From a virus: 64,000 bases of DNA. Below, in pieces: positions 10,221 to 51,924 of this stretch. The stretch lies in the IMG/VR virus record IMGVR_UViG_3300020463_002275, positions 1 through 64,000 of that record, one strand, 5' to 3'. Numbering within the stretch: the stretch's first letter is position 1; every line of letters starts with the position of its first letter. The notes beneath the pieces were generated by a model. The model did not search any database and was not told the DNA's origin. It saw nothing but the letters and a program-made list of their open reading frames with translations. Both the position numbers and the translations under genes were made by a program.

Positions 10221-10415
10221 ATGACAGATGATAGATCAGAAGATGCAACATACGAAAACGAAAGTAGTACGGTAACGATACCTTTGAGAGAATACGATAA
10301 GTTACGTGAGCGTCAATCATATATTACTGATAAAAGTTTAATTGGTATAATTGATAAGTTAGAAGAACTTGTTAGAGCATTGAGAAAACATATAGTAAGG
10401 ACGGACTTTGATTAA
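10221..10415 (+). CDS. Hypothetical protein
   Basis: AGGAG SD before ATG 10221. Confidence 0.55.
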   Translation: MTDDRSEDATYENESSTVTIPLREYDKLRERQSYITDKSLIGIIDKLEELVRALRKHIVRTDFD

Positions 10416-11973: not shown

Positions 11974-12148
11974 ACTTGCAACACACTTGCAAGAGTTATA
12001 CAAACGTCATAGGTCACTTGATCAAGAAATAAAAGTTTTGTATAATCAATTTGTAGAAAATCATGAACTTAATCTTTTGAAAACAAAGAAACTTTGGTTA
12101 AAAGATGAAATATACAGAATAGAAAATGAATTAAAGGCTTTAGGATGA
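11945..12148 (+). CDS. YdcH/DUF465-like coiled-coil protein
   Basis: L..HRSLDQEI...LKTKKLWLKDEIYRI pattern. Confidence 0.6.
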   Translation: MSNYTDKHDKLATHLQELYKRHRSLDQEIKVLYNQFVENHELNLLKTKKLWLKDEIYRIENELKALG

Positions 12149-12552
12149 GTAAATTAAATCAACGTCTGCATTGGACTACAACTATTACAGAGAAAGTAAT
12201 GCTTGGAGGTATTGGTGGACTAACAGTAGTTGCCGCACTATTAGAAGTGTATGGTATGTATCAAGCAAGGAGTATAGAACTTGCTGATTTATTCTTGTTA
12301 TTCATTTATACAGAGATCGTAGGCATGGTAGGTGCTTATTATATTAGTAATAGAATACCTGTCACACTTCCAATTATTATTGCAATGACGGCTTTGTGTA
12401 GATTAATTATCCTACATAGTAAAGATGCTGATCCTTGGGTACTAATAGCAGAAGCAGGTGCTATTGTTATACTAGCAGGAGCGGCATACATTATGAGTGC
12501 AAAAGAAAAACTAAGTTTAGAAAAGAAAAAAATAAAAGAAGATGCTGAGTGA
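12145..12552 (+). CDS. psiE: Phosphate-starvation-inducible PsiE-like membrane protein
   Basis: Four TM helices; LADLFLLFIYTEIVGMV, IPVTLPIIIAMTALCRLII. Confidence 0.75.
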   Translation: MSKLNQRLHWTTTITEKVMLGGIGGLTVVAALLEVYGMYQARSIELADLFLLFIYTEIVGMVGAYYISNRIPVTLPIIIAMTALCRLIILHSKDADPWVLIAEAGAIVILAGAAYIMSAKEKLSLEKKKIKEDAE

Positions 12553-13118
12553 AAAAGATGTACGTTGATACAATAAATCCTGTAGAATTTAAAATTATTG
12601 GTAAAGATTTAAAAGAATTTTTACAAGGTTTAATCACTAATAACATAAACAATATAGACAAAGAACCCGTAGAAACGTTCATACTTACGCCTCAGGGTAA
12701 GATAAAACATCAAGTTAAAATAACAGATAAAGGTGACGGCTTTAGTATATTATGTACTAACGACCAAAGCAGTTTGTTTGCTTTTTTGAACCTTTATGGA
12801 AAATTTAAAGGTATAGTTGTAGAAAAAGTAGATGTCAAAGAAGTATATGATAAGAAATACTTCTTAAGACTTTTAGAACAAGGTAAACTAGATACTAACT
12901 TTTTAACACAACCATCATTGTATCCTGCTGAGGTAGATGATAGTTTAGTTGATTACGATAAAGGTTGTTACTTGGGTCAGGAAGTAGTTTCAAGAATGAA
13001 ACACAGACAAAAGAACAAAAAACAAATAAAGATAGCAAATATACTCAATACAAAGCCTTCAGATGCAAAAGTATTACTAGAAATAGAGAACTATATTATT
13101 ATTAAGGTACCAGTATAA
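12549..13118 (+). CDS. ygfZ: Short YgfZ/Iba57 (GcvT-like, Fe-S maturation) protein
   Basis: FLQGLITNNI, ILTPQGKI and signature DYDKGCYLGQEVVSRMKHR; only 189 aa. Confidence 0.8.
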   Translation: MKKMYVDTINPVEFKIIGKDLKEFLQGLITNNINNIDKEPVETFILTPQGKIKHQVKITDKGDGFSILCTNDQSSLFAFLNLYGKFKGIVVEKVDVKEVYDKKYFLRLLEQGKLDTNFLTQPSLYPAEVDDSLVDYDKGCYLGQEVVSRMKHRQKNKKQIKIANILNTKPSDAKVLLEIENYIIIKVPV

Positions 13119-13273
13119 TGATGACTGAGAAAGAAGTAAGAGCAGAGTTTAAAGAACACAGAAAAGATCTAGTGTTTGCTGAGTGCTGGCCTAATACAGA
13201 TCGTGCTTTTTATGAATGGTGCTCGCAGTATCTAGATTACAAACATATTAAAAGAGATGATGATGACTACTAA
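13118..13273 (+). CDS. Small hypothetical protein (51 aa; not in ORF track)
   Basis: TAATG coupling; MMTEKEVRAEF...KRDDDDY*. Confidence 0.5.
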   Translation: MMTEKEVRAEFKEHRKDLVFAECWPNTDRAFYEWCSQYLDYKHIKRDDDDY

Positions 13274-34692: not shown

Positions 34693-35221
34693 TAAAGTTT
34701 GTTTTACATTTGAGTTTGAATATGATATGAAAGCATTAGCAGACATAGTGTATAATATTGACAAATGGGATAGTTATATTCCACCAAAGTGGGATGAAAC
34801 AAAATACACTATTAATAATTTTACTGGTGTAACATATAGGTATTATGAAGATTTACAAAACAAAGAACCTATAAAAACAATAAGAGAAAAATTAAATTTT
34901 CCATATTTGGATTATAAGACAACTCAACTACTAAAGTTTCCTCCGCATAATGGACCTACTATTCATAGAGATACGGAACGACATACTGCTATACTTTTTC
35001 CGATATATACTAATGAAGTATACGAACCTATAAAATTTTATCATGATGATACATCAGAATGGTTTGAAGTAGACTATCATGATAAGGTAATTGTATTTGA
35101 TGCAAAAGTGTTACATGCAGTTGCAAATAAAGAGTATAATAGATTTAGTTTACAGTTTGATTTTAAAGAAACGTATAAAGAAGTATATGAAAAATATTGT
35201 AACGGAGAATTTTTTGCTTAA
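34685..35221 (+). CDS. 2OG-Fe(II) oxygenase-like protein
   Basis: TIHRD, VLHAV, RFSLQF. Confidence 0.6.
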   Translation: MDNKVCFTFEFEYDMKALADIVYNIDKWDSYIPPKWDETKYTINNFTGVTYRYYEDLQNKEPIKTIREKLNFPYLDYKTTQLLKFPPHNGPTIHRDTERHTAILFPIYTNEVYEPIKFYHDDTSEWFEVDYHDKVIVFDAKVLHAVANKEYNRFSLQFDFKETYKEVYEKYCNGEFFA

Positions 35222-37397
35222 CGTTTTCGGAGTACAATTGAATGCACACTATACTGTGACACTTCCTGTTAGTTTAGGAACATTGTGGTCGTATCTTTAT
35301 ACAGTAAAAGATGTATACAAACATTTGAATCATACAGGCTGGGCAACTTATCATAAGCCTGAAACTAGTGTAATGGAACTGTTTCCAGAAGTTGATAAAA
35401 ACGGTGCACCTGATGTAGTGCTTGTTAGTTTATACATGTGGAATAGAAACAGATCCATAAAACTTACAAAAGCAATTAAAGAAAAATATCCTGATGTAAA
35501 AATTATTGTCGGAGGAAATGAAGTTCCTCAAGATCCTGAAAGATTTAAACAGTTTGTTGCTGATAATCCTCAGTTTGATTACTATGTTAACAGTGAAGGC
35601 GAAATGGCATTAGAAATGATGTTGCGAAAAATACTTGCTGAAAAAGGTATTTACAAGTCAAAATATTATGAAGATTGTTATCACCAAACAAAAAATGGCA
35701 AAATTATTAGTAAGCAAACAACTAGACGTTACTTAAATCATAAAGCAGAATTAGATTATCCTAGTGCATGTGCATTAGGACTATATGATGACTTAGTTGC
35801 AAAATTGCCTAAAGATATACAAATACAAGGTGTATTAGAAACTAATAGAGGATGTCCTTACACTTGTACATTCTGTGATTGGGGATTAGAAGAAAAACTA
35901 AGACGTTTTAGCATGAAGCGTATCAAGGACGAAATTGATTGGTATGTAGGCAACGTACACGAAATAATGTTTTCTGATGCTAACTTTGGCATTTTGCATA
36001 GAGATCTAGATATTGCAAAATATTTAATCAAGGCAAAATTACAACATCCTAATCCTAAATTACATACAACAGCAATTACGTATGCAAAAAATAACAAAGA
36101 AAGAGTTTTACGTATTGCAGAGATATTAGAGAAATTTGACTTTAGTAGAAGTGGTGCAACTTTTAGTTTGCAAAGTTTACATACTCCTACACTTGAAGCA
36201 ATCAAAAGAGATAACTTGAGTATTACAAAAGATTTTGAATGGATTGCACAAAACTTTATTAAAAAAGGCTTACCTTACTATCATGAAATGATTATGGGAA
36301 TGCCGTTAGAAACAAAAGAAAGTTTTCTAAACGGTATGAGTAAGTTGTTAAAATATAATCCATTAGAAATAAATGTATACAAATTAGCATGGTTGGAAAA
36401 CAGTGAAATAAGTTTAGAAAAACATGAAGATATTTACAAGTTAGAATGGGACGAGTTTGAACAAGGACCTAGTCCGTTTGAAGATGAAAAAGAATATGCA
36501 TATATCATTGGAAGTACGAGTACGATTACACGAAAAGATATGAGATATATTAGAGACATACGTGATTTGATACAAGTGTTATGGTTAGGAAGAACAATAT
36601 TCTATGTAGGAAGATATCTACAAAACGAATATGACATTGAAGCATGTGATATGATTGAAAAAATTGTTGACTGGTTTCAAACAAAAGGCGATAAAGAATT
36701 TTTTGATACATTGTTAGCAAGTAAAGAAGATGCAGTGCGTGATAAAAAAAGAGATGTACCTCTTTGGTTTCCTTACCAAAAAGATAAATTAAAATTCCAT
36801 AGGTATTCTAATGCTTGGTTATTTTTACACGGCACAAAAGAAAGAAAAAATCATTTCTATGAACAAATTACACAGTTTTTCTTAGACACTTACAAGCAAG
36901 TAGACAAAGACTTATTATTAGATCTTATACACTTCAATAAAAATATACTTATTGATGGAGAACAAACTGAATTCAATACAAACTTTACAACAAAGTATAG
37001 TTGGATTGATTATTTTACGAAAGGCCAACTTATGAAATCTAAGACAACATATGATGCTAAAATAGAAGTTGCTGGAAATACAAAAGTTTCTAAAGATGCT
37101 GTTGATCGAAATGTTTTCTTATATTATATTTCAGGCGGACATGAATTCATGTTTAACAAACAAAATGCATTTTATTATCCAGATGGAACATACACAAACG
37201 AACAAGGCATACATCATTACATAAGTAGAATAGGAATGTTTTATCCTAAAGATACTTACTTTGAAAGTGCTGAAGATATTATTGATAGTATATTAAACGA
37301 AGAAGATATTGATATTAAAGAATATATTACTAGTGCAAGACTTAAAATATCAAAAAATATTAACGAAGAATTAAATCCTTTTAAAGTTTCTGCTTAA
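35187..37397 (+). CDS. Cobalamin (B12)-binding radical SAM enzyme (class B methyltransferase-like)
   Basis: N-terminal B12 domain (SLYMWN, IIVGGNEV, NSEGE), ETNRGCPYTCTFCDWG, DANFG, MIMGMPLET. Confidence 0.85.
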   Translation: MKNIVTENFLLNVFGVQLNAHYTVTLPVSLGTLWSYLYTVKDVYKHLNHTGWATYHKPETSVMELFPEVDKNGAPDVVLVSLYMWNRNRSIKLTKAIKEKYPDVKIIVGGNEVPQDPERFKQFVADNPQFDYYVNSEGEMALEMMLRKILAEKGIYKSKYYEDCYHQTKNGKIISKQTTRRYLNHKAELDYPSACALGLYDDLVAKLPKDIQIQGVLETNRGCPYTCTFCDWGLEEKLRRFSMKRIKDEIDWYVGNVHEIMFSDANFGILHRDLDIAKYLIKAKLQHPNPKLHTTAITYAKNNKERVLRIAEILEKFDFSRSGATFSLQSLHTPTLEAIKRDNLSITKDFEWIAQNFIKKGLPYYHEMIMGMPLETKESFLNGMSKLLKYNPLEINVYKLAWLENSEISLEKHEDIYKLEWDEFEQGPSPFEDEKEYAYIIGSTSTITRKDMRYIRDIRDLIQVLWLGRTIFYVGRYLQNEYDIEACDMIEKIVDWFQTKGDKEFFDTLLASKEDAVRDKKRDVPLWFPYQKDKLKFHRYSNAWLFLHGTKERKNHFYEQITQFFLDTYKQVDKDLLLDLIHFNKNILIDGEQTEFNTNFTTKYSWIDYFTKGQLMKSKTTYDAKIEVAGNTKVSKDAVDRNVFLYYISGGHEFMFNKQNAFYYPDGTYTNEQGIHHYISRIGMFYPKDTYFESAEDIIDSILNEEDIDIKEYITSARLKISKNINEELNPFKVSA

Positions 37398-40904: not shown

Positions 40905-42014
40905 CTATTTCCTTTTAGGTATCTTTGAATCTGCTGAACTTACACAACTTTTAGTAATACACGTTTTAGGTGTCTTAAACAGTTCGAAACCTGTTTCTAT
41001 GTTGCCTAGTGGTGCATCATGGCACGAATAACTCCTTTTTACGCTACCGTCTGGCTCGCGTATTATAAGTCCGCTAAAACCGGCGTTACACCGCCATCCT
41101 TCGAAATTATTGAAATTAAAGGCATTAAAACGTTCTGCTTGGTCCATATACCACTTTTTACCATTAGAATCTTTTAGTTCTACTTGCATATGCCAAGGAA
41201 CACTGGCATCATTTTTTCCTTCTACTCCATGAGGTATTTGGAATGAGGCTTTCGGTCTTTCTGCCCAGACTCTCTTACTTTCTGTGTATCCTCTTTGTGG
41301 CATTCCGTTCCAGAGTCTTTTAAGATCTTCCTCCTTGTATCCTTCAACCACTCTTGAGGCTGTTGGATCGGACTGAGGTTTAAGAGTGACATTGATACCA
41401 CGTTCGTGGAAGAAGAGAGCGTTTTCCCAATCCCTTTCAAAGTGTTCAGGCACCATGACCTGATTAATTGTAACTTGTACATCATGTTCTTGACACAAGA
41501 TCAATTTGTCTGCAAAGTCTTGCATCTTCTCCTTACTGTTTACGTGTTCTACATGCAGACTTGCGGTTATGCTTGCTCTATGAAATGGTTTAGCATATTC
41601 AACATAAGTGTTAAACCATTTCATAGGTCGGCTACAATTACTAGTCATATGAATACTAGTATAATTTGTATTAGATACATCGTCGGCTAGATACTTTAAT
41701 ATATCCAAGTATCCAGGATGGAATGTAGGTTCTCCCCCTGACAGGGAGAAGTGAAAACTGTTGAAACCGTTGTCTCTGGCTTGACGTTTAATCTCATCCA
41801 CTGTTCGCAAGCATAACTCGGTAGGACGGTGGTCTTTACGATCGCTTCTTGCGTAAGGCCAACAGTAGGAACATCTATAGTTACAGAACCTTCCGAGTAG
41901 CCAGGATACAGTAAATAAATCACGATAAAGCAAAGTGCGTTGACCCACAGAGACAATATCGCCAAACGGGATCTTTGTAAAATCATAATTGCTCCATTTT
42001 AAATCTTCTGTCAT
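40905..42014 (-). CDS. Radical SAM enzyme with C-terminal Cys cluster
   Basis: CNYRCSYC, SGGEPT, C-terminal CNAG...SC..C..CVSSAD. Confidence 0.88.
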   Translation of the reverse strand: MTEDLKWSNYDFTKIPFGDIVSVGQRTLLYRDLFTVSWLLGRFCNYRCSYCWPYARSDRKDHRPTELCLRTVDEIKRQARDNGFNSFHFSLSGGEPTFHPGYLDILKYLADDVSNTNYTSIHMTSNCSRPMKWFNTYVEYAKPFHRASITASLHVEHVNSKEKMQDFADKLILCQEHDVQVTINQVMVPEHFERDWENALFFHERGINVTLKPQSDPTASRVVEGYKEEDLKRLWNGMPQRGYTESKRVWAERPKASFQIPHGVEGKNDASVPWHMQVELKDSNGKKWYMDQAERFNAFNFNNFEGWRCNAGFSGLIIREPDGSVKRSYSCHDAPLGNIETGFELFKTPKTCITKSCVSSADSKIPKRK

Positions 42015-42019
42015 GATAT

Positions 42020-42048
42020 TATTATACGATAAATATGATTATATGTCA
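42020..42048 (-). promoter_or_regulatory. sigma70-type promoter TTGACA-N17-TATAAT on the - strand
   Basis: tgtcaa 42043-42048, attata 42020-42025; ATG at 42014 lies close to the likely +1. Confidence 0.8.
42028..42034 (+). promoter_or_regulatory. ATAAATA late-type core for the nitroreductase, nested in the opposite-strand sigma70 spacer
   Basis: ATAAATA 42028-42034; GGAG SD and ATG 42090 downstream. Confidence 0.5.
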
Positions 42049-42089
42049 AGCACAACATACATATACTTATTAATACGGAGAATTTTAAT

Positions 42090-42680
42090 ATGAAGGATAT
42101 GATTAGACTGGCTAGAACTGTAGAACGCTGTCAAAGGAATTTTGATCATACGAAAAGAATACCTAATAAACATGTAAAATACATTTTGAACTGTGCTACT
42201 AGTATGCCTACAAAACAGCAACAAAATTTTTATAACATTACAGTTATAGAAGAAGAGCCTCTTGCAAGAGAGTTTTATACTACTTGTTCTATTGCAGACG
42301 GTGAAGAATGGAGGAATAGCCAAACTTATGCTCCATTAGTTTTATTATATTCGACTTACCCGAAATATAACAGATATGAGCCATATAATGATATAGCGAT
42401 GTCTATAGGGCTCAGTTCAGGAGCCGCCGCACTTGCCGCCGCCAATTTGGGATATAAAACAGGTTTTTGTAAATGCATCGACGAACATCTAACAAATGCA
42501 TTTGTTTGGGATCATTTTCGTAAAAAAGTATGGGATCCAACACTGGCAGTAGGAATAGGACATTCTTTAGAAGGATTCGACAGAACTGAAGGTGTATTAG
42601 ATGGTGAAGTAAAATATCAAGCAGAATCCAATGGAGACAAAGAAATTAAAATTTTTAGACGTCCGCGGCCATCTCCTTAA
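42090..42680 (+). CDS. Nitroreductase-family flavoprotein
   Basis: RCQRNFD, AT.MPTKQ.QNFY, AAANLGYKTGFC, LAVGIG; the only + strand gene in the - block. Confidence 0.75.
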   Translation: MKDMIRLARTVERCQRNFDHTKRIPNKHVKYILNCATSMPTKQQQNFYNITVIEEEPLAREFYTTCSIADGEEWRNSQTYAPLVLLYSTYPKYNRYEPYNDIAMSIGLSSGAAALAAANLGYKTGFCKCIDEHLTNAFVWDHFRKKVWDPTLAVGIGHSLEGFDRTEGVLDGEVKYQAESNGDKEIKIFRRPRPSP

Positions 42681-43839
42681 TTGTTGTCCAAATAGTTTTA
42701 CCATTCAAACTTCCAATATCTTTTTTGAAAACAGGTTCTAAGTGTTTTGTTCTTTGTGTAAATATTTCTTTTGCATCTTGTTCATGTAATGCTTTAGGAC
42801 TACAAAGACCACAACCACAATGAAACTTAGGACATCTAATTACAGGCATCTTTCCACTGCGTAACGATTTTCTTAGTTTATCTATTATTGGTTTAAAATT
42901 ACTTGCTTTTCCAATTGGTCCTATTTCACCATCCATATTAACTTGACATGTTTGATGATGCCACACGCCGTCAAGTTCGCTGTTAATAAAAAGAAAGTCC
43001 CAGTTTACCATACAATGCCAACCATGAAAATTAGTTGTAGGTACTCTAAAATCTCTAGACCATTTATCGGCTACTTTAATATTTAGACACTTACCATTAC
43101 AGCACGGTCTACCAATAGTTTCAAGAGAGGTTTTTTTCTGTGCCATATGCATGGTATTTTTTACAGGTTTCGGTTTTAGTTTCTTAGTCCACTGATTTTT
43201 AAAATACTCTAATTGCTTATCTGTATATGCATGTGCAGTACCGTCTAATAAATCAGATTTATTATTACTATCACCTATGGGTCTGCTAGTATATGTTATA
43301 CCTAACTCGTCAAACCATTCCGCTAATTCAATACACTCTTCAAAATAATCTTTGTGAAACATATGATTAATTCTAAAATTATATCCGCTTTCATGCATTA
43401 ATTTTATATTTTCTATTACTAATTTTTTCTGCTCCGGAGTGCCTTCAGCATGATAACTTAATGTAGTGCTATTAATACATTCCATAATCTGCTTGCAACG
43501 CTTTGCTGTATAACATCCGTTTGTTGTAATATTAGACCTTATAAATGGATATGTTTCTTTAGCATATTGCACAAATTTAAAAAACGCAGGATGTATTGTT
43601 GGTTCACCGCCTGTGTATGCAATATCTAATTTAAGAGGATCTTTTCTATATAAGTCTAATAATTGTGCATACTCTACAATTCCGTCTAATGTATGTTTGA
43701 GTACGTTTATATCGACTAGTGGACTTGTTTTGTTACTGTGATGTGGTCCGCAATAACTACATGCGTAAGTGCATCTTCTGCCTAAATCCCATACTACGCT
43801 AAAATCTTCTTTCCGCGTATGGTTAATAGCGTTTAGCAC
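42655..43839 (-). CDS. Radical SAM enzyme
   Basis: CTYACSYC, TGGEPT, TTNG, C-terminal CPKFHCGCGLC. Confidence 0.88.
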   Translation of the reverse strand: MLNAINHTRKEDFSVVWDLGRRCTYACSYCGPHHSNKTSPLVDINVLKHTLDGIVEYAQLLDLYRKDPLKLDIAYTGGEPTIHPAFFKFVQYAKETYPFIRSNITTNGCYTAKRCKQIMECINSTTLSYHAEGTPEQKKLVIENIKLMHESGYNFRINHMFHKDYFEECIELAEWFDELGITYTSRPIGDSNNKSDLLDGTAHAYTDKQLEYFKNQWTKKLKPKPVKNTMHMAQKKTSLETIGRPCCNGKCLNIKVADKWSRDFRVPTTNFHGWHCMVNWDFLFINSELDGVWHHQTCQVNMDGEIGPIGKASNFKPIIDKLRKSLRSGKMPVIRCPKFHCGCGLCSPKALHEQDAKEIFTQRTKHLEPVFKKDIGSLNGKTIWTTIKEMAADV

Positions 43840-45444: not shown

Positions 45445-46136
45445 ACTATGCGTCCAAAACCCCAATATCTTTCTAAACAAAAAAAGCATTCTCCACAATG
45501 CAAATGATTGCCTTTATCATCTAATAATTCATAAGGCGCATTTTCACAACTAAAAGTATAAGGATATAATTTTTCCATCATATCTAATTCTTCATACGCA
45601 CTTGCAGTACCTTTTTTGTCAGTAGCACCAAAAACTCTATATGGATTTGTGTTAGGATGTGAAATATTATCCCTATCAGTATCTCTAATATCAAGATGCT
45701 TTTGTATTCTTGAGAAATCTAGTCCGTGCGTACTTGCATTTTCTTTAAAATAATTTTTCATTTCTAGTGGAGGTGGATTTTTTGTTAGTCCACTAAAAAA
45801 TCCTATATCGCCATATTTTTCTTTTACTTCTGCAACTAATTGTTCTTGGCCATTAGTATAATTTTTGTCACTATGTGGCACTGTTATAGTAAAATGTTCA
45901 GTAGGTTCTATTCCTGTAAGATCTTTTACAATACCTATAACACGTTTTGCGCCTGCAATATATAAATTTTTAAAATCTGTATCTAAAGTTACTACAATTA
46001 TTTTAGTATCTAAATTATTATCTTTGATATGTTTGCATAAAGCATAGTATAGGATAGAACTATCTGCTCCTCCGCTTAATTTCATTCCTATGTATTCGCC
46101 AATGTTTAAATTTTTAATCTTATCTAATATACTCAT
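45441..46136 (-). CDS. QueC-like PP-loop adenine-nucleotide alpha-hydrolase
   Basis: SGGADS, TFSC, HCGECFFCLER. Confidence 0.75.
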   Translation of the reverse strand: MSILDKIKNLNIGEYIGMKLSGGADSSILYYALCKHIKDNNLDTKIIVVTLDTDFKNLYIAGAKRVIGIVKDLTGIEPTEHFTITVPHSDKNYTNGQEQLVAEVKEKYGDIGFFSGLTKNPPPLEMKNYFKENASTHGLDFSRIQKHLDIRDTDRDNISHPNTNPYRVFGATDKKGTASAYEELDMMEKLYPYTFSCENAPYELLDDKGNHLHCGECFFCLERYWGFGRIV

Positions 46137-47029
46137 ATCCATTTCTCCACTATTGCGTCCAATTTACAAGGACATGCTTTATAATTACACACTATAGGAT
46201 CCTCTGGTAGTGTGTATGCACCCGTTTTAAGATTACCCAAACTTCCACCAACACGTTTTGTACAACGTAGCATATTGCCATCTGGTTCTACCATTAATCT
46301 TTTTATACCTGCTGTACAAGTATATCCGTTGAATATATGCTTTTGTTGATCTAATACTTTCATAAACTTTAACGGATCACCATCAAAATGTAAGTTTCGA
46401 GGTATGGTCCAATCTATACCAAATGGCTTCATTTTATGCCATGCATTATTTTGTATCCATTCTCTTTGTTCGTCAGTGTATTTAAAATAGTTTGTACCAC
46501 CTATACTAGTCCTTGTAAATTTTGGAGTTATTTCTACTTTCAGATCAGTCAACCTATAATACAAAGACTTAGCACGTTCAAAATTATCTGGTGTAATCAT
46601 AAGTGGTATACTTACACTTGCTTTATGTTGCATAATTTTTGCAACTTCATAAAAATGATCATCGTCAGCAAATTCGTTATGCCAACTTAAAAAACAAAAT
46701 GCCCTGTGTGTTCTAAACTTTTCCCAATATCTTAAAGTCCTACTTGCGTTTGTACTAAATTCTACAAAAACTGTGTCTGAACTTATAGTATCTACAAAGT
46801 CCTGGAACTTAGGCCATAGTGTAGGTTCTCCGCCTAAAACTTCTACATAAAGATACTTGTTCTTTTTTTGCATTTTTTCAATAAGATCGATGTAGGGCTC
46901 CCATTCAGTTGGCCAACGTTCACTGCCATCTCTATGATAATCGTCACAGTAACTACAATTATAATTGCATACATTATGTATAAACAACGTGATAATAGCA
47001 CAGTCTAGATTTTCATTAGTTATGTGCAT
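46133..47029 (-). CDS. Radical SAM enzyme with C-terminal twitch-like Cys cluster
   Basis: CNYNCSYC, LGGEPT, STNA, CTAG...RC...CNYKACPC. Confidence 0.88.
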   Translation of the reverse strand: MHITNENLDCAIITLFIHNVCNYNCSYCDDYHRDGSERWPTEWEPYIDLIEKMQKKNKYLYVEVLGGEPTLWPKFQDFVDTISSDTVFVEFSTNASRTLRYWEKFRTHRAFCFLSWHNEFADDDHFYEVAKIMQHKASVSIPLMITPDNFERAKSLYYRLTDLKVEITPKFTRTSIGGTNYFKYTDEQREWIQNNAWHKMKPFGIDWTIPRNLHFDGDPLKFMKVLDQQKHIFNGYTCTAGIKRLMVEPDGNMLRCTKRVGGSLGNLKTGAYTLPEDPIVCNYKACPCKLDAIVEKWI

Positions 47030-48372
47030 TAAAATAAATCCTTATATTGCGGTACAATATCTAAAATATTTTGATCACGTACTTTGTCAAGTTTTTTAGT
47101 TTGATCTACAAAATGTTCTAACCATTCCTCTGAATAGTCTTCGCTCATCATAAATTTTTCTACGCCATTTAAAACTTTTGCATAATTTCCTTTTACATGG
47201 TCACTAAAGTCTGTTGTTGCAATCCAATCCTTATGTTCTTGATAATAATCTTTTACTTGTTGTTTTAATTCAGGAGGCAAAACTTTTACATTAAAATATT
47301 TAGGACTATGACACATATGATGTGTAAGTATAGGTCTCATACCATCAATAGGATTAAATTTATCTAATCCACTTTCAGTAAGTTTCCATTTCATAAAATC
47401 TGCCATATGGAATACATTATAAGGTGTAACAGTAAACGCAAACCATGCTTTGAGATTAATTTTTTCATTTTGCTGTAGCGTCATCATATGTTTGTATACT
47501 GCATCAAACTTTGCAGGAGTGCGTTGATAGTTAAACACATCACCTATGCCATCTATACTAACACCAATTCTAATTTGTTTAAATTGTTCCCACAGATAAA
47601 CTAATCTATCAGGAACCATTGTAAGATTACTATTATATTCTAATTGTATCTGTTTACTTTTACCAGACGCTACTAAACGTTCTAAACTTTCTTGATGTTC
47701 TTTAATAATTAAAGGTTCGCCGCCAACTATATAAAGTTTTTTTGCTTTAGGCCCGTACTTTTCAAAATTACTCCAGTATCTATTATTATTTTGAAACCAA
47801 TCATATTGATCAGTATGCCACTTGCCTTTGGCATTTTTAGTAAGTTTAATTTTTTCATGTGTATCTTTGTATTCTGTTTTTCCTGTTATTGCAACAAAAT
47901 CATCATACCATTTATGACTGTCTGTAGGTCCACACATTCTACATTTTAAATTACAAAAATTACCGTATCGTACATCCATAAATTCGATTGGCAAACTTTC
48001 AGCATCAATAGTTCCATCTTCTTCAGTATGTGGTAACATTTTTTCTAAACTTATATCGCCAAACCATTTACCCCAATCGTCATTTTCATACTCACGTCTG
48101 CTACGAATACCGTTTACTTCTTCTTGTCGGCAACGTTCGCACTCAGGATGCCATTCGCCTTTCATCATTGACTTTCTTACTTCTTTTAGTATTTCTGCAT
48201 TACGTGCTTCGTTCCAATCATCTTTGCCTGCATTATACGGAGTACCATCTTCTTTAGACATGATACCACGCTTAGGACTGTAACTGTTTGTGTTACAACA
48301 AATACGCAAATCACCATTGTTACGCATGTTAATACTATTCCACGGTAATGGGCAAAAAGTACAATCACTCAT
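47029..48372 (-). CDS. Radical SAM enzyme with N-terminal SPASM/twitch-like domain
   Basis: CPLPW...GDLRICC...CERC, then GNFCNLKCRMC, GGEPL, YNSN. Confidence 0.88.
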   Translation of the reverse strand: MSDCTFCPLPWNSINMRNNGDLRICCNTNSYSPKRGIMSKEDGTPYNAGKDDWNEARNAEILKEVRKSMMKGEWHPECERCRQEEVNGIRSRREYENDDWGKWFGDISLEKMLPHTEEDGTIDAESLPIEFMDVRYGNFCNLKCRMCGPTDSHKWYDDFVAITGKTEYKDTHEKIKLTKNAKGKWHTDQYDWFQNNNRYWSNFEKYGPKAKKLYIVGGEPLIIKEHQESLERLVASGKSKQIQLEYNSNLTMVPDRLVYLWEQFKQIRIGVSIDGIGDVFNYQRTPAKFDAVYKHMMTLQQNEKINLKAWFAFTVTPYNVFHMADFMKWKLTESGLDKFNPIDGMRPILTHHMCHSPKYFNVKVLPPELKQQVKDYYQEHKDWIATTDFSDHVKGNYAKVLNGVEKFMMSEDYSEEWLEHFVDQTKKLDKVRDQNILDIVPQYKDLF

Positions 48373-49781
48373 TTGATATCCTCAAAAATATCTTTCATTT
48401 CAGGAAAAGTTTCTGCGAAAGAAATACCACGTTGCTTGTCACATAAATCTAAAAATTCTTTCATTTCAGGCAAGCGTTGTGTCCAATCTTCGCTTTCCAT
48501 AAACTGTAACATACCGTTAAGTCTGCTTATTCCATAACTAGCATTACGCCATGTATCATAATCAACTTTTCCTTTGTGCCAACTAGGAACACCTTTTTCC
48601 CAGTTTTCTTCCCACCACGGGTACCATGCTTCATATTTTTCACGACATTTTTCTTTAAACCACTTTGGTAAAATTTTAACATTAAGATGTGGTGGATGAT
48701 AAACAAAGTGATAATTAATAGCACCTGCACCAAATGGCCACATGTTAATTTTTTTAAAATTTTGTTCTAGTTTCCATTGTATAAAGTCAGGTAAGTAGTA
48801 AATGTTTAAAGCCTGTACTGCACAAGCAACTGTAACTTCTGTATTATTAGGTGTTTCGTTATCTAAAATATGAAACACTTCTTCTTGACGTTTCCAATTA
48901 CTAGGATAACGTATATAATCGTTCATTTCCTTAATACTATCTATTGAATAATGAAAACGTACTAATTTAAATTCTTTCCACAAGTCAAATAAATCTTCAC
49001 GCCATTCAACTCCATTTGAATTATAGCGTAGTTCTAAATCTTTTGCATATCCCATTTTAATTGCATGTTCAAGTATTTCGTAGTGTTCTTCAATAATAAG
49101 GCTTTCGCCTCCTGCAAAATAAATTTGTTGCATACTTGGCATTTGTTCATAAAACTGATTCCAAAATACAGGATTTTGTTTATGCCAATTATAACTACTT
49201 CCATTAAAACTACCTTTGTCTTTCCATTGCATAGTTTCTTTAAGACTTTCATCTTGTACTGCTGGAAAAATCTTTTTATAATCTTTAATCCATCCTGATG
49301 AATCATGAGGTGAACACATAACACAAGCAAGTTGGCACTTAGTTCCAAAACGTAAATCAATATATGCTAACTGTGGAGGTACACTTCCATCTTCTTTTGT
49401 ATCTGCAACTATTTTATCAACATCAACACGCTGACTCCAATAGTGTGTTTCCCACATACGTTTTGAATTATGTCCTGCGGCTTCTTCTTTGTAACACTTG
49501 ATACAACTTGGAGGCATTTCTCCGTTAAGCATTTGTTTACGCACATTCTTCATATATGTACTATTCCATGCTGTTTCAAAATCACTAACATTTAAGTTAT
49601 TAGGTCTTCCATGCTCATCTTTGAGAATACCAACTTGTCCTCCGTGTTCTTTATCGTTTGTAGGACCAACTGAACTTGCATTTGCAGTACAGCATACTCG
49701 CATGCTACCGTCAGGTCTAGTACTTAAATGTACCCAAGGTAGTAAGCAGAATGTTTCTGATGGTGATTTAAAGTCTTTCAT
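48369..49781 (-). CDS. Radical SAM enzyme with N-terminal SPASM/twitch-like domain (paralog of the adjacent gene)
   Basis: CLLPW...GSMRVCC...CIKC, then CQLACVMC, GGES, YNSN. Confidence 0.88.
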   Translation of the reverse strand: MKDFKSPSETFCLLPWVHLSTRPDGSMRVCCTANASSVGPTNDKEHGGQVGILKDEHGRPNNLNVSDFETAWNSTYMKNVRKQMLNGEMPPSCIKCYKEEAAGHNSKRMWETHYWSQRVDVDKIVADTKEDGSVPPQLAYIDLRFGTKCQLACVMCSPHDSSGWIKDYKKIFPAVQDESLKETMQWKDKGSFNGSSYNWHKQNPVFWNQFYEQMPSMQQIYFAGGESLIIEEHYEILEHAIKMGYAKDLELRYNSNGVEWREDLFDLWKEFKLVRFHYSIDSIKEMNDYIRYPSNWKRQEEVFHILDNETPNNTEVTVACAVQALNIYYLPDFIQWKLEQNFKKINMWPFGAGAINYHFVYHPPHLNVKILPKWFKEKCREKYEAWYPWWEENWEKGVPSWHKGKVDYDTWRNASYGISRLNGMLQFMESEDWTQRLPEMKEFLDLCDKQRGISFAETFPEMKDIFEDIK

Positions 49782-50824
49782 TATAAGTGTACATCTCTAA
49801 CTAATTGTTTGCATTTTCTTACACAAACAAAATATGTTTGTAAGTGATCGTCTATAAGTTTCCAATAACCACCTATTATATCTACTAAATTTGTGTGGTG
49901 TAGATTATGTAAATTTTTATCAACTTTGTGTGTTTCCCAAAGTTGTTCAATCTCGTTTGGATTACCCATCCAACAACAAGGCGTTACATATCCTCTTGCA
50001 TCAACATATATATTGCCAAACTTCTTGTGAAATTCAGTATCGCCACTATTTGTTTTTGCAGGACATTTTACACAACTTATTTCAGTATTTGATTTGTGTG
50101 TTTCTTTCTTATCCTTATCACCAAATTTAATATCTGATATTTCTACATCGTCAATCTTGTTTGCATCGCTAGTATCATACCAATCTGGTACTTCAAATTT
50201 TGTATCTCTTTCGTTGTCAATTTCATCTACTACTTCTCTATCACTATGAATCAACATTAGTTTTGAAAATCCTTCTCGATCTAACCTTTCCTTTACATCA
50301 TCTAATTGATGTTTATTGTGCGAGAATACAATAAATTGCCAAACAGCATCTCCTCCTGCGGCAATGTATGCTCTAAAATTACGCTGTAGTATTTCCCATT
50401 TTACATTTCGTCTATAAAGATGATTAGTATCTTCTAAACCGTCTATACCAAAAACTACAGTTAACTTACCCTTTTTTTTACTAATACGACCTAACTTGTG
50501 CCAAAACGCAACATCTCTTGTACCACCATTGGTGCTAATTGATATTTTTTTTGTTTGTATACTTAATGTATGTGCCCATTGTACTAGATCTATTAATTCT
50601 GGATTAATAGATGGTTCATCAACACTTCCACAAAAATGAATATCTGTCAATTGATCCCAATTGTACTTACTAAACCATTTCTTGTAATTTTCTAACGTAT
50701 GTGCGGCATTATTAAGATCGCTTAAATGCATATCGGCTCTGTCGCATTGCGGACATGCCGCATTGCAATAATTTGTACATTCTAGTTGCAATCTACCAAC
50801 TTGTGTTGTATTAAACCATTCCAT
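49781..50824 (-). CDS. Radical SAM enzyme with C-terminal SPASM-like domain
   Basis: CNAACPQC, CGSVDEP, STNGG, YVDARGYVTPCCW...CVRKC. Confidence 0.88.
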   Translation of the reverse strand: MEWFNTTQVGRLQLECTNYCNAACPQCDRADMHLSDLNNAAHTLENYKKWFSKYNWDQLTDIHFCGSVDEPSINPELIDLVQWAHTLSIQTKKISISTNGGTRDVAFWHKLGRISKKKGKLTVVFGIDGLEDTNHLYRRNVKWEILQRNFRAYIAAGGDAVWQFIVFSHNKHQLDDVKERLDREGFSKLMLIHSDREVVDEIDNERDTKFEVPDWYDTSDANKIDDVEISDIKFGDKDKKETHKSNTEISCVKCPAKTNSGDTEFHKKFGNIYVDARGYVTPCCWMGNPNEIEQLWETHKVDKNLHNLHHTNLVDIIGGYWKLIDDHLQTYFVCVRKCKQLVRDVHL

Positions 50825-50835
50825 GATATACGTAC

Positions 50836-51924
50836 TTATCTGAACTGTTCACCGTAAGGATCGAACTCGGTGCCACACTTTTGAGAACAAACTCCAAGTT
50901 TACCATCTGCAACACTAGACTTATTCCAACTATTTGTTATGCTTCCGATTAGTTGTCCATTAACTACATCTTCTATATCATTTTCTATAATACTAATTCC
51001 TTGTTTTCCGCCAGCACTATCTATATGATCCCATATTTGTTCAACTTTAGGATCTGCATGCCACCACTTGTACATTCTTCCTGCTGTCCAACAACACGGC
51101 ATTAACAATCCCTCTGCTGTAACAAATATACTACCTTGCTTCGCAACTTTACATTTTATAGAACATTTGTCTAAATATTCTTTCATACTTCCATATGACT
51201 TTACTATTTCTGCTTGTTTTAACAATGCTAAATTTTTATTTTTTTCTTCTTTTGGTTGTTGCAGTTTTTGTGTTTCAGCACCTTTTCTGTTTACCGCTTG
51301 GTGATGATATTTAGGTTTTATATCAGTAGTTACAAATCTACCACTTTTCTTTTTAATAAATTTTTCACACCCCCATTGATTAGCAAGTGCTTCTGCTTCA
51401 TCTACTTGATGTTCGTTATGCTGAAATATTAAGAAATCCCAACGTGCTCTGCCTCCAGCATCAATAAATGCTTGCATGTTTCTTTCTACATTATCCCATA
51501 CAACATTTTGTCTGTATAGATGATTTGTATCACGCAATCCATCAACACTAAAAATAACAGCACCCTTTCTTCCTATTACTTCTGCTAATTTTGCCCACCA
51601 ATAGATATCTTTGGCGCCAGCATTAGTATTCATACTAAGCCACATATTAGAATTATGTTCTCTAAAATATTGAAATATTTCTAATGTATCTTTTGCAACT
51701 ATAGGATCTCCTAAGTTACCGCACATATACATAACATTCAATTGCTTGATAAATGAAGGACTAAACATACGCTTGGTATCTTCAATACTTAATTCAGCAT
51801 TTGTTATGTGAGGATTGTCAGCACCGCCATTCATATTACGATCACACATAGGACAAGCCGCCTGGCAACGTTGAGTCACCTCTAAATGAACTTCCTTAAT
51901 ATCTGCGAATCTATACATTCTCAT
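50836..51924 (-). CDS. Radical SAM enzyme with C-terminal SPASM-like domain (paralog of the adjacent gene)
   Basis: CQAACPMC, CGNLGDP, NTNAG, FVTAEGLLMPCCW...CSQKC. Confidence 0.88.
   Translation of the reverse strand: MRMYRFADIKEVHLEVTQRCQAACPMCDRNMNGGADNPHITNAELSIEDTKRMFSPSFIKQLNVMYMCGNLGDPIVAKDTLEIFQYFREHNSNMWLSMNTNAGAKDIYWWAKLAEVIGRKGAVIFSVDGLRDTNHLYRQNVVWDNVERNMQAFIDAGGRARWDFLIFQHNEHQVDEAEALANQWGCEKFIKKKSGRFVTTDIKPKYHHQAVNRKGAETQKLQQPKEEKNKNLALLKQAEIVKSYGSMKEYLDKCSIKCKVAKQGSIFVTAEGLLMPCCWTAGRMYKWWHADPKVEQIWDHIDSAGGKQGISIIENDIEDVVNGQLIGSITNSWNKSSVADGKLGVCSQKCGTEFDPYGEQFR

What the first reader, a model, noticed from the sequence alone, without database searches (positions are those of the whole stretch)
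12549..13118. Minimal phage YgfZ/Iba57: an Fe-S maturation helper for nine radical SAM enzymes?
Seen: the signature KGCYLGQE and the N-terminal FLQGLITN block are present, but the protein is only 189 aa, so much of the middle appears deleted. The window encodes 9 radical SAM proteins. Known: YgfZ/Iba57 supports [4Fe-4S] maturation, notably for radical SAM enzymes such as MiaB and RimO; cellular members are roughly 250-330 aa. Inference: the phage carries its own streamlined cluster-maturation factor to meet unusual Fe-S demand. I do not know this as a common phage gene.
Basis: partly seen in the sequence, partly recalled or inferred. Interest (0 to 1): 0.7.

Follow-up and report, generated by a model that had tools for sequence, protein, structure and literature searches.

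The report
Minimal SAR11-type YgfZ in jumbo phage
A giant uncultured marine phage carries a working-looking, one-third-shortened copy of the iron-sulfur helper YgfZ; the shortening arose in SAR11 bacteria, not in the phage, and the gene travels with other iron-sulfur supply genes in phages packed with radical SAM enzymes.

Summary
The ORF is real: 189 aa as listed, probably 186 aa from the ATG at 12558. It carries the YgfZ/IBA57 signature, including the invariant Cys.

- **Family.** It passes NCBIfam TIGR03317 narrowly. Its model (pLDDT 87) superposes on E. coli YgfZ and human IBA57 at Z about 15.
- **What is missing.** Against a 280-aa YgfZ it lacks a 39-residue beta-alpha-beta-alpha-beta block, one barrel strand and the last 39 residues.
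- **Intact and selected.** dN/dS is 0.15-0.18.
- **Origin.** The truncation is not a phage invention. Pelagibacteraceae (SAR11) have the same 192-209 aa form as their only YgfZ (43% identity). Phage and SAR11 forms make one clade with 100% support.
- **Rarity.** No PHROG, BFVD fold or bona fide GenBank phage match was found. The gene is a gene-sized cassette at six or more positions in Rak2/BF-like jumbo phages.
- **Radical SAM count.** The window has 8 supported radical SAM genes, not 9.
- **Radical SAM link: mixed.** In three relatives ygfZ lies within 2 kb of a radical SAM gene, once overlapping its stop codon. But 15 related contigs with 9-21 radical SAM genes lack it.
- **New support.** ygfZ-positive contigs also carry SufE (including this genome), a NifU-domain protein or A-type carriers. 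SufE: 3 of 8 against 1 of 60.

An earlier-findings search by words found no earlier phage YgfZ.

The parts
12558..13118 (+). Short YgfZ/CAF17-family gene. It is 186 aa from the ATG at 12558; the mechanical ORF starts at the GTG at 12549 and gives 189 aa.
   Evidence: ORF. TIGR03317 scores 50.8 bits against a cut-off of 49. AF2 model has pLDDT 87.4. Fold matches YgfZ and IBA57. Homologues start at M4. dN/dS is 0.15-0.18.
12618..12641 (+). N-terminal FLQGLITN block (residues 24-31) inside the intact ferredoxin-like domain.
   Evidence: F24, Q26 and T30 are invariant or nearly invariant. Residues 13-74 match Pfam GCV_T positions 50-112, below the cut-off.
12837..12842 (+). Junction (residues 97/98) where canonical YgfZ proteins have a further 39-45 residues forming a beta-alpha-beta-alpha-beta block that includes the DPRxxxxGxR consensus.
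   Evidence: Alignment gap analysis. Secondary-structure mapping against the AF2 model of the 280-aa homologue P0092.
12960..12983 (+). Signature K138-G-C140-Y-L-G-Q-E145, including the family's invariant cysteine.
   Evidence: Invariant in 99 aligned homologues. It is the core of the TIGR03317 match and of the matches to 1nrk and 1vly.
12145..12552 (+). PsiE-family membrane protein gene immediately upstream. Its stop codon overlaps the GTG at 12549.
   Evidence: Pfam PF06146 at 73.6 bits. Homologues at 49-50% identity in the same Pelagibacteraceae-type genomes that hold the short YgfZ.
13118..13273 (+). 51-aa ORF that moved together with ygfZ in one relative only (L001). It is not a constant partner.
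   Evidence: 81% nucleotide identity over window 12534-13251 against L001. Absent next to ygfZ in L012-L017.
35091..37397 (+). B12-binding radical SAM enzyme (KedN5-like C-methyltransferase family). Candidate Fe-S client.
   Evidence: Pfam B12-binding plus Radical_SAM. NF033712 at E 1e-56, below its cut-off.
40905..43839 (-). Two radical SAM genes (40905-42014 and 42655-43839), with a nitroreductase-like gene on the + strand between them.
   Evidence: Pfam Radical_SAM at 54.9 and 38.9 bits. Also found in the six-frame search.
46133..51924 (-). Five consecutive radical SAM genes. Two are N-terminal twitch-domain radical SAM proteins (47029-48372 and 48369-49781), a type that binds auxiliary clusters.
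   Evidence: Pfam. NF033640 N_Twi_rSAM at 352 and 420 bits against a cut-off of 170. Six-frame search.

Best explanation
The gene encodes a functional, minimal YgfZ/IBA57-type iron-sulfur cluster helper.

**Origin and spread.** An ancestor of these phages took it from a Pelagibacteraceae (SAR11) lineage in which YgfZ had already lost a 39-residue subdomain and half of its C-terminal barrel. It now moves as a gene-sized cassette among a sub-lineage of marine jumbo phages of about 350 kb, related to Rak2 and Serratia phage BF.

**Proposed mechanism.** By analogy with IBA57 and YgfZ, the exposed cysteine of the KGCYLGQE loop (C140) works with the host's A-type carrier proteins. Together they build, insert or re-insert [4Fe-4S] clusters into apo-enzymes. 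In the infected cell the largest new demand comes from the phage's own 8 radical SAM enzymes. The phage SufE (just outside the window) would feed sulfur in at an earlier step.

**Shown here:** family identity, fold, which parts are missing, purifying selection, SAR11 origin, mobility, physical linkage to radical SAM genes in three relatives, and co-occurrence with SufE, NifU-domain and A-type carrier genes.

**Inferred:** Fe-S activity of the short form, its partners, its clients, and whether folate still binds.
For: **Family and fold**
- TIGR03317 is above its cut-off.
- The signature and the cysteine are invariant.
- The AF2 model has pLDDT 87.4. Foldseek's best hits are YgfZ 1nrk, Iba57 7z3h and IBA57 6qe3 at E about 1e-9.
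- VIA-align gives Z 15.7 with 183 of 189 residues aligned on 1nrk, and Z 15.4 on 6qe3.

**Selection**
- The ORF is intact in 8 loci and 17 protein clusters. dN/dS is 0.15-0.18 for the least saturated pairs.

**Origin**
- 192-209 aa orthologues sit in housekeeping context in genomes of 0.7-1.4 Mb. One is named Pelagibacteraceae and seen on at least 1000 contigs.
- It is 43% identical end to end.
- Phage plus short cellular forms make one clade with 100% support.

**Linkage to radical SAM genes**
- In L015 the ygfZ start overlaps the stop of a radical SAM gene, inside a 14-gene array.
- Radical SAM genes lie within 2 kb in L016 and L017.
- Every ygfZ-positive viral contig of 27 kb or more has radical SAM genes.

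**Fe-S gene set**
- SufE is in G000 at 96,823-97,227.
- A NifU-domain protein and SufE lie right after the array in G004.
- Two A-type carriers are in G002. SufE is also in G006.
- The 15 control contigs checked for all three families have none of them. SufE is in only 1 of 60 ygfZ-negative contigs.

**Partners and background**
- The donor-type genomes have two A-type carriers each.
- YgfZ is needed for the radical SAM enzymes MiaB and RimO, and IBA57 complements ygfZ mutants (PMC10002905).
Against: - No biochemical data exist for any short-form YgfZ.
- The missing block holds a motif conserved in the long forms (DPRxxxxGxR), so folate binding or partner contacts may be lost.
- The score is only just over the TIGR03317 cut-off, and close relatives fall just under it at 47-48 bits. 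The full-length YgfZ equivalog model is far below its cut-off: 37.7 against 219.
- None of 46 related contigs has ygfZ. The 15 of them that I counted carry 9-21 radical SAM genes each.
- In the window the gene lies in the replication module beside psiE, 22 kb from the nearest radical SAM gene.
- Adjacency in L015-L017 could simply reflect a hypervariable island that collects accessory genes.
- The contigs are fragments and are not phylogenetically independent, so my Fisher tests are only indicative.
Confidence: 0.55

Rival explanations
1. A general host-maintenance auxiliary gene. The phage copy tops up the host's own YgfZ activity to keep host [4Fe-4S] enzymes (respiration, tRNA and ribosome thiomethylation) working under the oxidative or nutrient stress of infection. 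It would have no special tie to the phage's radical SAM enzymes.
For: - In the window and in L012 the gene sits in the replication or early region, next to the stress-type gene psiE.
- Both ygfZ and psiE have SAR11 homologues at 43-50% identity.
- Most radical-SAM-rich relatives do without it.
- E. coli ygfZ mutants are sensitive to oxidative stress (PMC10002905).
Against: - In L015 the gene is translationally coupled to a radical SAM gene inside an array that ends with NifU-domain and SufE genes.
- Radical SAM genes lie within 2 kb in L016 and L017.
- With about 8% of such a genome lying that close to a radical SAM gene, 3 or more of 8 contexts by chance has P about 0.02.
Confidence: 0.25
2. 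A neofunctionalised folate-dependent (GcvT-like) one-carbon enzyme that takes part in the phage's tailoring chemistry on sugars, peptides or nucleic acid, rather than in Fe-S handling.
For: - The fold is equally close to GcvT T-proteins: Z 16.0 for 1yx2 and 15.8 for 1vlo.
- The gene often lies in tailoring islands, for example right after a NodU-like carbamoyltransferase in L013 and L017.
- In the window and L012 it lies within 3 kb of a 521-aa ORF with a DSGGFQ motif, which resembles tRNA-guanine transglycosylase.
Against: - The YgfZ-specific KGC[YF]xGQE loop and its cysteine are invariant, whereas Pfam GCV_T is below its cut-off.
- The SAR11 orthologue is the only YgfZ-like gene found in those genomes, which also hold 10-12 other GCV_T proteins, and it sits in housekeeping context.
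- No neighbour is constant across the eight contexts.
- The 521-aa ORF matches no family.
Confidence: 0.1
3. A hitch-hiking or decaying gene with no current function in the phage.
For: Distribution is patchy, and it is absent from the closest relatives by capsid and by twitch radical SAM gene.
Against: - Reading frames are intact in all copies. dN/dS is 0.15-0.18. All family-invariant residues are kept over 52-96% identity.
- Copies at 97-99% nucleotide identity occur in phages whose core genes are only about 50% identical, which indicates recent transfer and retention.
Confidence: 0.04

Closest known systems
E. coli YgfZ (PDB 1NRK, 1VLY; NCBIfam NF007110, TIGR03317; COG0354)
   Same: - Same signature loop with the cysteine.
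- Same N-terminal ferredoxin-like domain.
- 183 of 189 residues superpose at Z 15.7, rmsd 3.4 A.
- The TIGR03317 domain model is passed.
   Different: - 186-189 aa against 326 aa.
- It lacks a beta-alpha-beta-alpha-beta block, one barrel strand and the C-terminal helix plus two strands.
- The full-length equivalog model scores 37.7 against a cut-off of 219.
- Only 16-18% identity.
- Encoded by a virus.
Mitochondrial IBA57/CAF17 (human 6QE3, 6GEU; Chaetomium 7Z3H)
   Same: - Best sequence identity among solved structures: 22-27% over the aligned residues, at Z 14.7-15.4.
- Same cysteine-bearing motif. From my own knowledge, not a tool result: in IBA57 this cysteine ligates a [2Fe-2S] cluster together with ISCA2.
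- It acts late in [4Fe-4S] assembly (PMC10002905).
   Different: The same deletions as against YgfZ. There is no targeting peptide. The partner would have to be a bacterial A-type carrier, which this phage record does not encode but the presumed host lineage does.
Short YgfZ of Pelagibacteraceae (for example GIR16884.1, annotated 'hypothetical protein'; protein P0298)
   Same: - Same length class (192-209 aa) and the same deletions.
- 43% identity end to end.
- One clade with the phage copies, with 100% support.
   Different: Chromosomal, single copy, in a conserved housekeeping neighbourhood (purE, purK, an aminoacyl-tRNA synthetase, sppA). The phage copies form their own branch (SH-aLRT 93) and are mobile.
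Other virus-encoded Fe-S cluster auxiliary genes (A-type carriers, NifU or Nfu, SufE)
   Same: Same general idea: a virus supplements the host's Fe-S biogenesis. nifU is reported as a viral auxiliary gene in soils (abstract of PMC13149639). Relatives of this phage carry SufE, NifU-domain and A-type carrier genes.
   Different: I found no report of a virus-encoded YgfZ/IBA57 in the searchable literature. There is none in PHROGs or BFVD, and none in bona fide GenBank phages.
GcvT aminomethyltransferase family (Pfam PF01571)
   Same: Same overall fold, at Z up to 16.0, with a weak match of residues 13-74.
   Different: It is below the Pfam cut-off (20.1 against 25.6). It carries the YgfZ-specific cysteine motif. 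It lacks a large part of the domain that surrounds the folate pocket in T-proteins.

Membership tests
YgfZ / IBA57 / CAF17 (COG0354, TIGR03317) | Signature K-G-C-[YF]-x-G-Q-E with the invariant cysteine. | tested here: met
   KGCYLGQE at residues 138-145. K138, G139, C140, G143, Q144 and E145 are invariant in 99 homologues.
YgfZ / IBA57 / CAF17 (COG0354, TIGR03317) | Score over the curated cut-off of the family's domain model, TIGR03317. | tested here: met
   50.8 bits against 49. This is narrow: phage relatives P0012 and P0015 and the SAR11 forms score 44-48 bits, just under the cut-off.
YgfZ / IBA57 / CAF17 (COG0354, TIGR03317) | Full-length equivalence to E. coli YgfZ (NF007110, 327 positions). 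| tested here: not met
   37.7 bits against a cut-off of 219. Only residues 135-161 match.
YgfZ / IBA57 / CAF17 (COG0354, TIGR03317) | GcvT-like fold shared with the solved YgfZ and IBA57 structures. | tested here: met
   Foldseek top hits are 1nrk, 7z3h and 6qe3 at E about 1e-9. VIA gives Z 15.7 and 15.4 with 180-183 residues aligned. The fold alone does not separate YgfZ from GcvT.
YgfZ / IBA57 / CAF17 (COG0354, TIGR03317) | Complete three-domain architecture: both halves of the central domain and a full C-terminal barrel. | tested here: not met
   Missing are the residues that correspond to 97-135, 220-232 and 242-280 of a 280-aa YgfZ modelled at pLDDT 94.4.
YgfZ / IBA57 / CAF17 (COG0354, TIGR03317) | Folate binding. 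| not testable with these tools
   No ligand modelling or assay was available. The deleted block contains the DPRxxxxGxR consensus of the long forms.
YgfZ / IBA57 / CAF17 (COG0354, TIGR03317) | Supports [4Fe-4S] enzyme activity in vivo (MiaB, RimO; complementation of ygfZ mutants). | not testable with these tools
   This is known for E. coli YgfZ and eukaryotic IBA57 (PMC10002905). No data exist for any short form.
YgfZ / IBA57 / CAF17 (COG0354, TIGR03317) | An A-type carrier partner (IscA, ErpA or ISCA type) is available. | tested here: inconclusive
   There is none in the 182-kb phage record. There are two per genome in the Pelagibacteraceae-type genomes and two in the ygfZ-positive relative G002.
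GcvT aminomethyltransferase (Pfam PF01571) | Score over Pfam's gathering cut-off. | tested here: not met
   20.1 bits against 25.6, over residues 13-74 only.

The most novel reading that the evidence does not exclude
A sub-lineage of marine jumbo phages of about 350 kb carries its own dispersed late-acting Fe-S delivery kit: SufE, an Nfu-type carrier, A-type carriers and a minimal YgfZ. The kit would charge and re-charge the 8-14 radical SAM tailoring enzymes these phages encode. Because the ygfZ copy (and the psiE beside it) is of Pelagibacteraceae type, these jumbo phages would infect SAR11, cells barely larger than the virion. The 186-192 aa form would also define the minimal functional core of the poorly understood YgfZ/IBA57 proteins.
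Probability: 0.2. Interest if true: 0.75.

Novelty: new variant of a known kind. Interest (0 to 1): 0.5.

Why it matters
- **A natural minimal form.** YgfZ/IBA57 is required for [4Fe-4S] enzymes from bacteria to human mitochondria, yet its mechanism and the role of folate are unresolved (PMC10002905). This form keeps the cysteine loop but lacks a whole subdomain and half the barrel. [quoted passage not shown] That makes it a ready test of which parts are essential.
- **A new class of viral auxiliary gene.** It extends viral auxiliary genes from early Fe-S scaffold and carrier genes to the last, client-loading step.
- **A testable reason.** Radical SAM arrays flanked by SufE and Nfu genes give a concrete hypothesis for why a virus would need it.
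- **A host lead.** It points to a host for an uncultured, globally distributed jumbo-phage lineage.
- **An annotation gap.** The SAR11 proteins fall 1-5 bits below the NCBIfam cut-off and are deposited as 'hypothetical protein'.

Tried and rejected
So the 151-kb, 133-kb and 296-kb contigs that hold P0012, P0015 and P0333 could not be read.
- **The search of earlier findings** failed once and then worked.
- **The 51-aa downstream ORF as a partner:** rejected. It is shared only with L001.
- **Link to the 521-aa ORF with a DSGGFQ motif** (possible transglycosylase): not supported. It matches no family or PDB sequence, and its position relative to ygfZ is not conserved.
- **Ninth radical SAM gene (2246-3052):** rejected.
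- **Promoter and terminator scan around the gene:** no more sites than in shuffled sequence, so uninformative.
- **"More radical SAM genes means ygfZ is present":** rejected within this lineage. Density is 6.6 hits per 100 kb in ygfZ-positive contigs, against 11.1 in 15 ygfZ-negative contigs chosen by the twitch radical SAM gene.
- **Pelagimyophage identity:** suggested by a weak DNA hit to HTVC008M and by the host-recognition-cluster paper (PMC7029224). Rejected. The capsid protein is closest to jumbo phages of about 350 kb: Vibrio 2.275.O, Sinorhizobium Phosso, Serratia BF and Yersinia fHe-Yen9-04, at 68-71%.
- **Taxonomy of the donor genomes** could not be read from the genome search, which withholds names. 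It was inferred from one named cluster member and from a DmdA that scores 424 bits against the P. ubique enzyme 3tfh.
- **J-domain or HscB-like reading of L351:2491-3030** is mine only. Pfam gave no hit.
Full report
**1. Is it there?**

The ORF 12549..13118 on the + strand gives 189 aa, with FLQGLITN at residues 24-31 and KGCYLGQE at residues 138-145. All phage homologues begin at the position of M4. An ATG lies at 12558, six bases after the stop of the upstream psiE-like gene. The real product is therefore probably 186 aa.

The window is the first 64 kb of a 181,934-bp IMG/VR record that CheckV rates 51% complete.

Eight ORFs have radical SAM support. The ninth ORF with a CX3CX2C motif (2246-3052) has none.

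**2. What family?**

- NCBIfam TIGR03317 (CAF17-like YgfZ) scores 50.8 bits against a cut-off of 49.
- The full-length E. coli YgfZ model scores only 37.7 against 219.
- Pfam GCV_T scores 20.1 against 25.6.
- An exhaustive phmmer search finds 2,255 relatives at E <= 1e-3. Typical cellular YgfZ proteins of 250-300 aa align in two separate stretches.
- Over 99 aligned homologues, G18, Q26, L46, G50, K138, G139, C140, G143, Q144, E145 and R149 are invariant.
- An AlphaFold2 model built on that alignment is confident: pLDDT 87.4, pTM 0.86.
- Foldseek ranks E. coli YgfZ (1nrk), Chaetomium Iba57 (7z3h), 3ttg and human IBA57 (6qe3) first, at E about 1e-9.
- VIA-align superposes 183 of 189 residues on 1nrk (Z 15.7, rmsd 3.4 A) and 180 on 6qe3 (Z 15.4, 23% identity). 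T-proteins tie at Z 15-16, so the fold alone does not separate YgfZ from GcvT. The cysteine motif does.

**3. What is missing?**

I modelled a 280-aa Rhizobium YgfZ (P0092, pLDDT 94.4) and mapped both secondary structures through the alignment. The phage protein keeps:

- the N-terminal ferredoxin-like domain;
- the helices around the signature loop;
- three strands of the C-terminal barrel.

It lacks:

- P0092 residues 97-135, a strand-helix-strand-helix-strand block that contains the DPRxxxxGxR consensus of the long forms;
- residues 220-232, one barrel strand;
- residues 242-280, a helix, two strands and the tail.

**4. Is it decaying?**

No. Seventeen protein clusters of 186-196 aa at 52-96% identity exist in marine metagenomes. 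Some sequences are seen on dozens of contigs of up to 296 kb. All eight copies for which I have DNA are intact. Nei-Gojobori dN/dS is 0.15, 0.18 and 0.15 for the three least saturated pairs.

**5. Where does the short form come from?**

- The best cellular matches (39-46% identity, end to end) are 192-209 aa proteins in single-cell and metagenome genomes of uncultured marine Alphaproteobacteria, 0.7-1.4 Mb in size. The metagenome loci that carry them have 27-29% G+C.
- They sit in a conserved housekeeping neighbourhood: purE, purK, an amidohydrolase, a heptosyltransferase, a class II aminoacyl-tRNA synthetase, sppA and polyprenyl synthase.
- One identical-cluster member is deposited as a hypothetical protein of a Pelagibacteraceae bacterium and occurs on at least 1000 contigs.
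- One such genome has 11 GCV_T-family matches, and its DmdA-like protein scores 424 bits against the P. ubique enzyme 3tfh.
- Eighteen of 41 sampled relatives have the short form as their only hit. More distant relatives of 1.5-1.6 Mb have a 277-298 aa form.
- In a maximum-likelihood tree the 12 phage and 14 short cellular sequences form one clade with 100% support, on a very long stem. The phage sequences lie on one side of a branch with SH-aLRT 93.

So the deletion predates the transfer. The phage inherited a SAR11-style minimal YgfZ. The SAR11 proteins score 44-48 bits on TIGR03317, just under the cut-off. That explains their 'hypothetical' labels.

**6. Which phage?**

It has a T4-type DNA polymerase, portal and major head protein. 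The head protein is 68-71% identical to those of isolates of about 350-470 kb: Vibrio phage 2.275.O, Sinorhizobium phage Phosso, Serratia phage BF and Yersinia phage fHe-Yen9-04. This agrees with the CheckV estimate. More than 600 IMG/VR contigs encode relatives of this capsid protein; the 80 best are 82-91% identical.

**7. How common is ygfZ in viruses, and how does it move?**

- There is no PHROG and no BFVD fold match.
- tblastn of the window's protein finds nothing in 50,697 GenBank phage records.
- A canonical YgfZ and the SAR11 form hit only records that look like bacterial DNA: 254-kb 'Acinetobacter phage' contigs, a 691-kb Salmonella scaffold and a 1.4-kb fragment.
- The literature library holds no report of a viral YgfZ.
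- In IMG/VR I found nine contigs with the gene, counting the window's own record.

Its neighbours differ almost every time:

| Locus | Position of ygfZ |
|---|---|
| Window | after psiE |
| L012 | directly after the DNA polymerase gene |
| L013, L017 | after a NodU-like carbamoyltransferase |
| L015 | inside a radical SAM array |
| L016 | two genes from a radical SAM gene |
| L002/L003 | after a gp46-like nuclease region |

Against L001 the shared DNA is window 12534-13251 at 81% identity. Against L002 and L003 it starts and stops at the gene's ends, at 97-99% identity, while flanking core genes are only about 50% identical at the protein level. Both of those contigs break inside the gene. This is the behaviour of a gene-sized mobile cassette that is still being exchanged.

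**8. Link to radical SAM genes**

*For the link:*
- Radical SAM matches on ygfZ-positive contigs number 8, 2, 8, 2, 14, 1, 6, 1 and 0. The zero is a 9.9-kb fragment.
- In L015, four co-directional radical SAM genes precede ygfZ. The last overlaps its start by 7 nt, and six more ORFs with the CX3CX2C motif follow within the locus.
- L016 and L017 have a radical SAM gene within 2 kb.
- If about 8% of such a genome lies that close to a radical SAM gene, 3 or more of 8 contexts has P about 0.02.

*Against the link:*
- 14 contigs chosen by capsid have no ygfZ and 0-5 radical SAM hits.
- 46 contigs (46-257 kb) chosen by an 84-96% identical twitch radical SAM gene also have no ygfZ.
- Fifteen of those carry 9-21 radical SAM matches each: 11.1 per 100 kb, against 6.6 in ygfZ-positive contigs. 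Six of them are 147-257 kb and span well beyond the 36 kb that separates the two genes in this genome.

Radical SAM arrays are therefore a hallmark of the whole lineage, and ygfZ is a rare extra. Load alone does not explain it.

**9. A wider Fe-S gene set**

I then looked for other Fe-S biogenesis genes.

| Record | Other Fe-S genes found |
|---|---|
| This genome (G000) | SufE at 96,823-97,227, overlapping the stop of the gp46-like gene; no A-type carrier or NifU domain |
| G004 (the L015 contig) | a NifU-domain protein (76 bits) and SufE (93 bits), immediately after the last gene of the radical SAM array that contains ygfZ |
| G002 (the L012 contig) | two A-type carriers (35 and 60 bits) beside an ACP-like gene |
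| G006 | SufE |
| 15 radical-SAM-rich ygfZ-negative contigs (1.96 Mb) | none of the three families |
| 45 further ygfZ-negative contigs | SufE only in G067, a close relative of this genome (twitch gene 96% identical) |

By my arithmetic, SufE at 3 of 8 against 1 of 60 gives a Fisher P of about 0.004. Any of the three families at 4 of 8 against 0 of 15 gives P of about 0.008. Neither test is corrected for relatedness or for contig length.

**10. Mechanism proposed**

Established knowledge (PMC10002905):
- IBA57 works with ISCA carriers to form and deliver [4Fe-4S] clusters.
- YgfZ is its bacterial homologue and is needed for MiaB and RimO.
- IBA57 genes rescue E. coli ygfZ mutants.
- Radical SAM enzymes with auxiliary clusters may need repeated re-loading.

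My inference: the phage protein uses C140 together with host A-type carriers, of which the donor-type genomes have two each, to load or re-load clusters. The phage's radical SAM proteins are the main new clients. Two of them belong to the twitch family NF033640, at 352 and 420 bits. SufE would boost the sulfur supply upstream. Whether folate still binds cannot be told.

**11. Rivals**

The rivals are a general host-maintenance role, a folate-dependent tailoring enzyme, and a functionless passenger. They are weighed in their own sections.

**12. Earlier notes of this scan**

Earlier notes describe the 30-58 kb island as a radical SAM and sugar-tailoring island that is conserved in hundreds of phage contigs. 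My counts agree with the 'hundreds of contigs' part. I did not test the sugar reading. None of the notes listed or found by words mentions a phage YgfZ.

**13. Verdict**

- The family assignment is right.
- 'Streamlined by the phage' is wrong, because the short form was inherited from SAR11.
- 'Needed because of nine radical SAM enzymes' is only partly supported.
- A first virus-borne YgfZ, with a natural minimal architecture, embedded in a viral Fe-S supply set, is a moderately interesting new variant of a known kind.

Noticed in passing
Related viral records G083, G087, G088, G093 and others (contigs of loci L298, L303, L305, L311): Relatives of this phage carry 9-21 radical SAM matches per contig: for example 21 in 170 kb and 19 in 165 kb. 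I found no description of such arrays in the searchable literature. Pelagimyophage 'host recognition clusters' are only said to gain radical SAM cassettes (PMC7029224).
   Followed up: partly
G000 96,823-97,227 (+), which is L187:3823-4227, 33 kb beyond the window's end: A SufE gene (PF02657, 97.8 bits) whose start overlaps the stop of the gp46/SbcC-like gene. It is only 33% identical to the SufE of the Pelagibacteraceae-type genomes. A longer ORF on the opposite strand masks it in a naive ORF call.
   Followed up: partly
L350:4596-5376 (G004) and L351:2491-4645 (G002): In G004, a NifU-domain protein and SufE follow a 14-gene radical SAM array. In G002 there are two A-type carriers, an ACP-like protein, a nitroreductase-like protein and a 179-aa protein that looks to me like a J-domain or HscB co-chaperone but has no Pfam hit.
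   Followed up: partly
window 10408-11973 (+): A 521-aa ORF containing DSGGFQ, the catalytic motif of tRNA-guanine transglycosylases and of DpdA-type DNA transglycosylases as I recall it. It has no hit in Pfam, NCBIfam, PHROGs or PDB sequences. It is conserved at 37% identity in L012.
   Followed up: partly
L002 (end) and L003 (start): Two contigs from one metagenome both break inside ygfZ. They match the window at 97-99% nucleotide identity only within the gene, while flanking genes are about 50% identical at the protein level. This points to a very recent cassette exchange, and to an assembly fork caused by it.
   Followed up: yes
Protein P0298 (GIR16884.1) and loci L018, L021, L097-L101, L186: The native YgfZ of abundant Pelagibacteraceae is only 192-209 aa. 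It scores 44-48 bits on TIGR03317 (cut-off 49) and is deposited as 'hypothetical protein'. This is a systematic annotation gap.
   Followed up: yes
window 11945-12552 (+): DUF465 and PsiE-family genes lie directly upstream of ygfZ. The PsiE-like protein is 49-50% identical to a 140-aa ORF in the same Pelagibacteraceae-type genomes. This is a second hint at the host.
   Followed up: partly
window 2246-3052 (+): A 268-aa ORF with a CX3CX2C motif at residue 156 is not a recognisable radical SAM protein. It has only weak hits to PHROGs of unknown function.
   Followed up: yes
L013:3240-3689 and L002:9604-10014: Next to ygfZ in other phages lie a P-loop kinase-like ORF (GLPGSGKST motif) and a phosphoribosyltransferase-like ORF (VVDDVYTTGTS motif). 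I read these from the sequence only.
   Followed up: no
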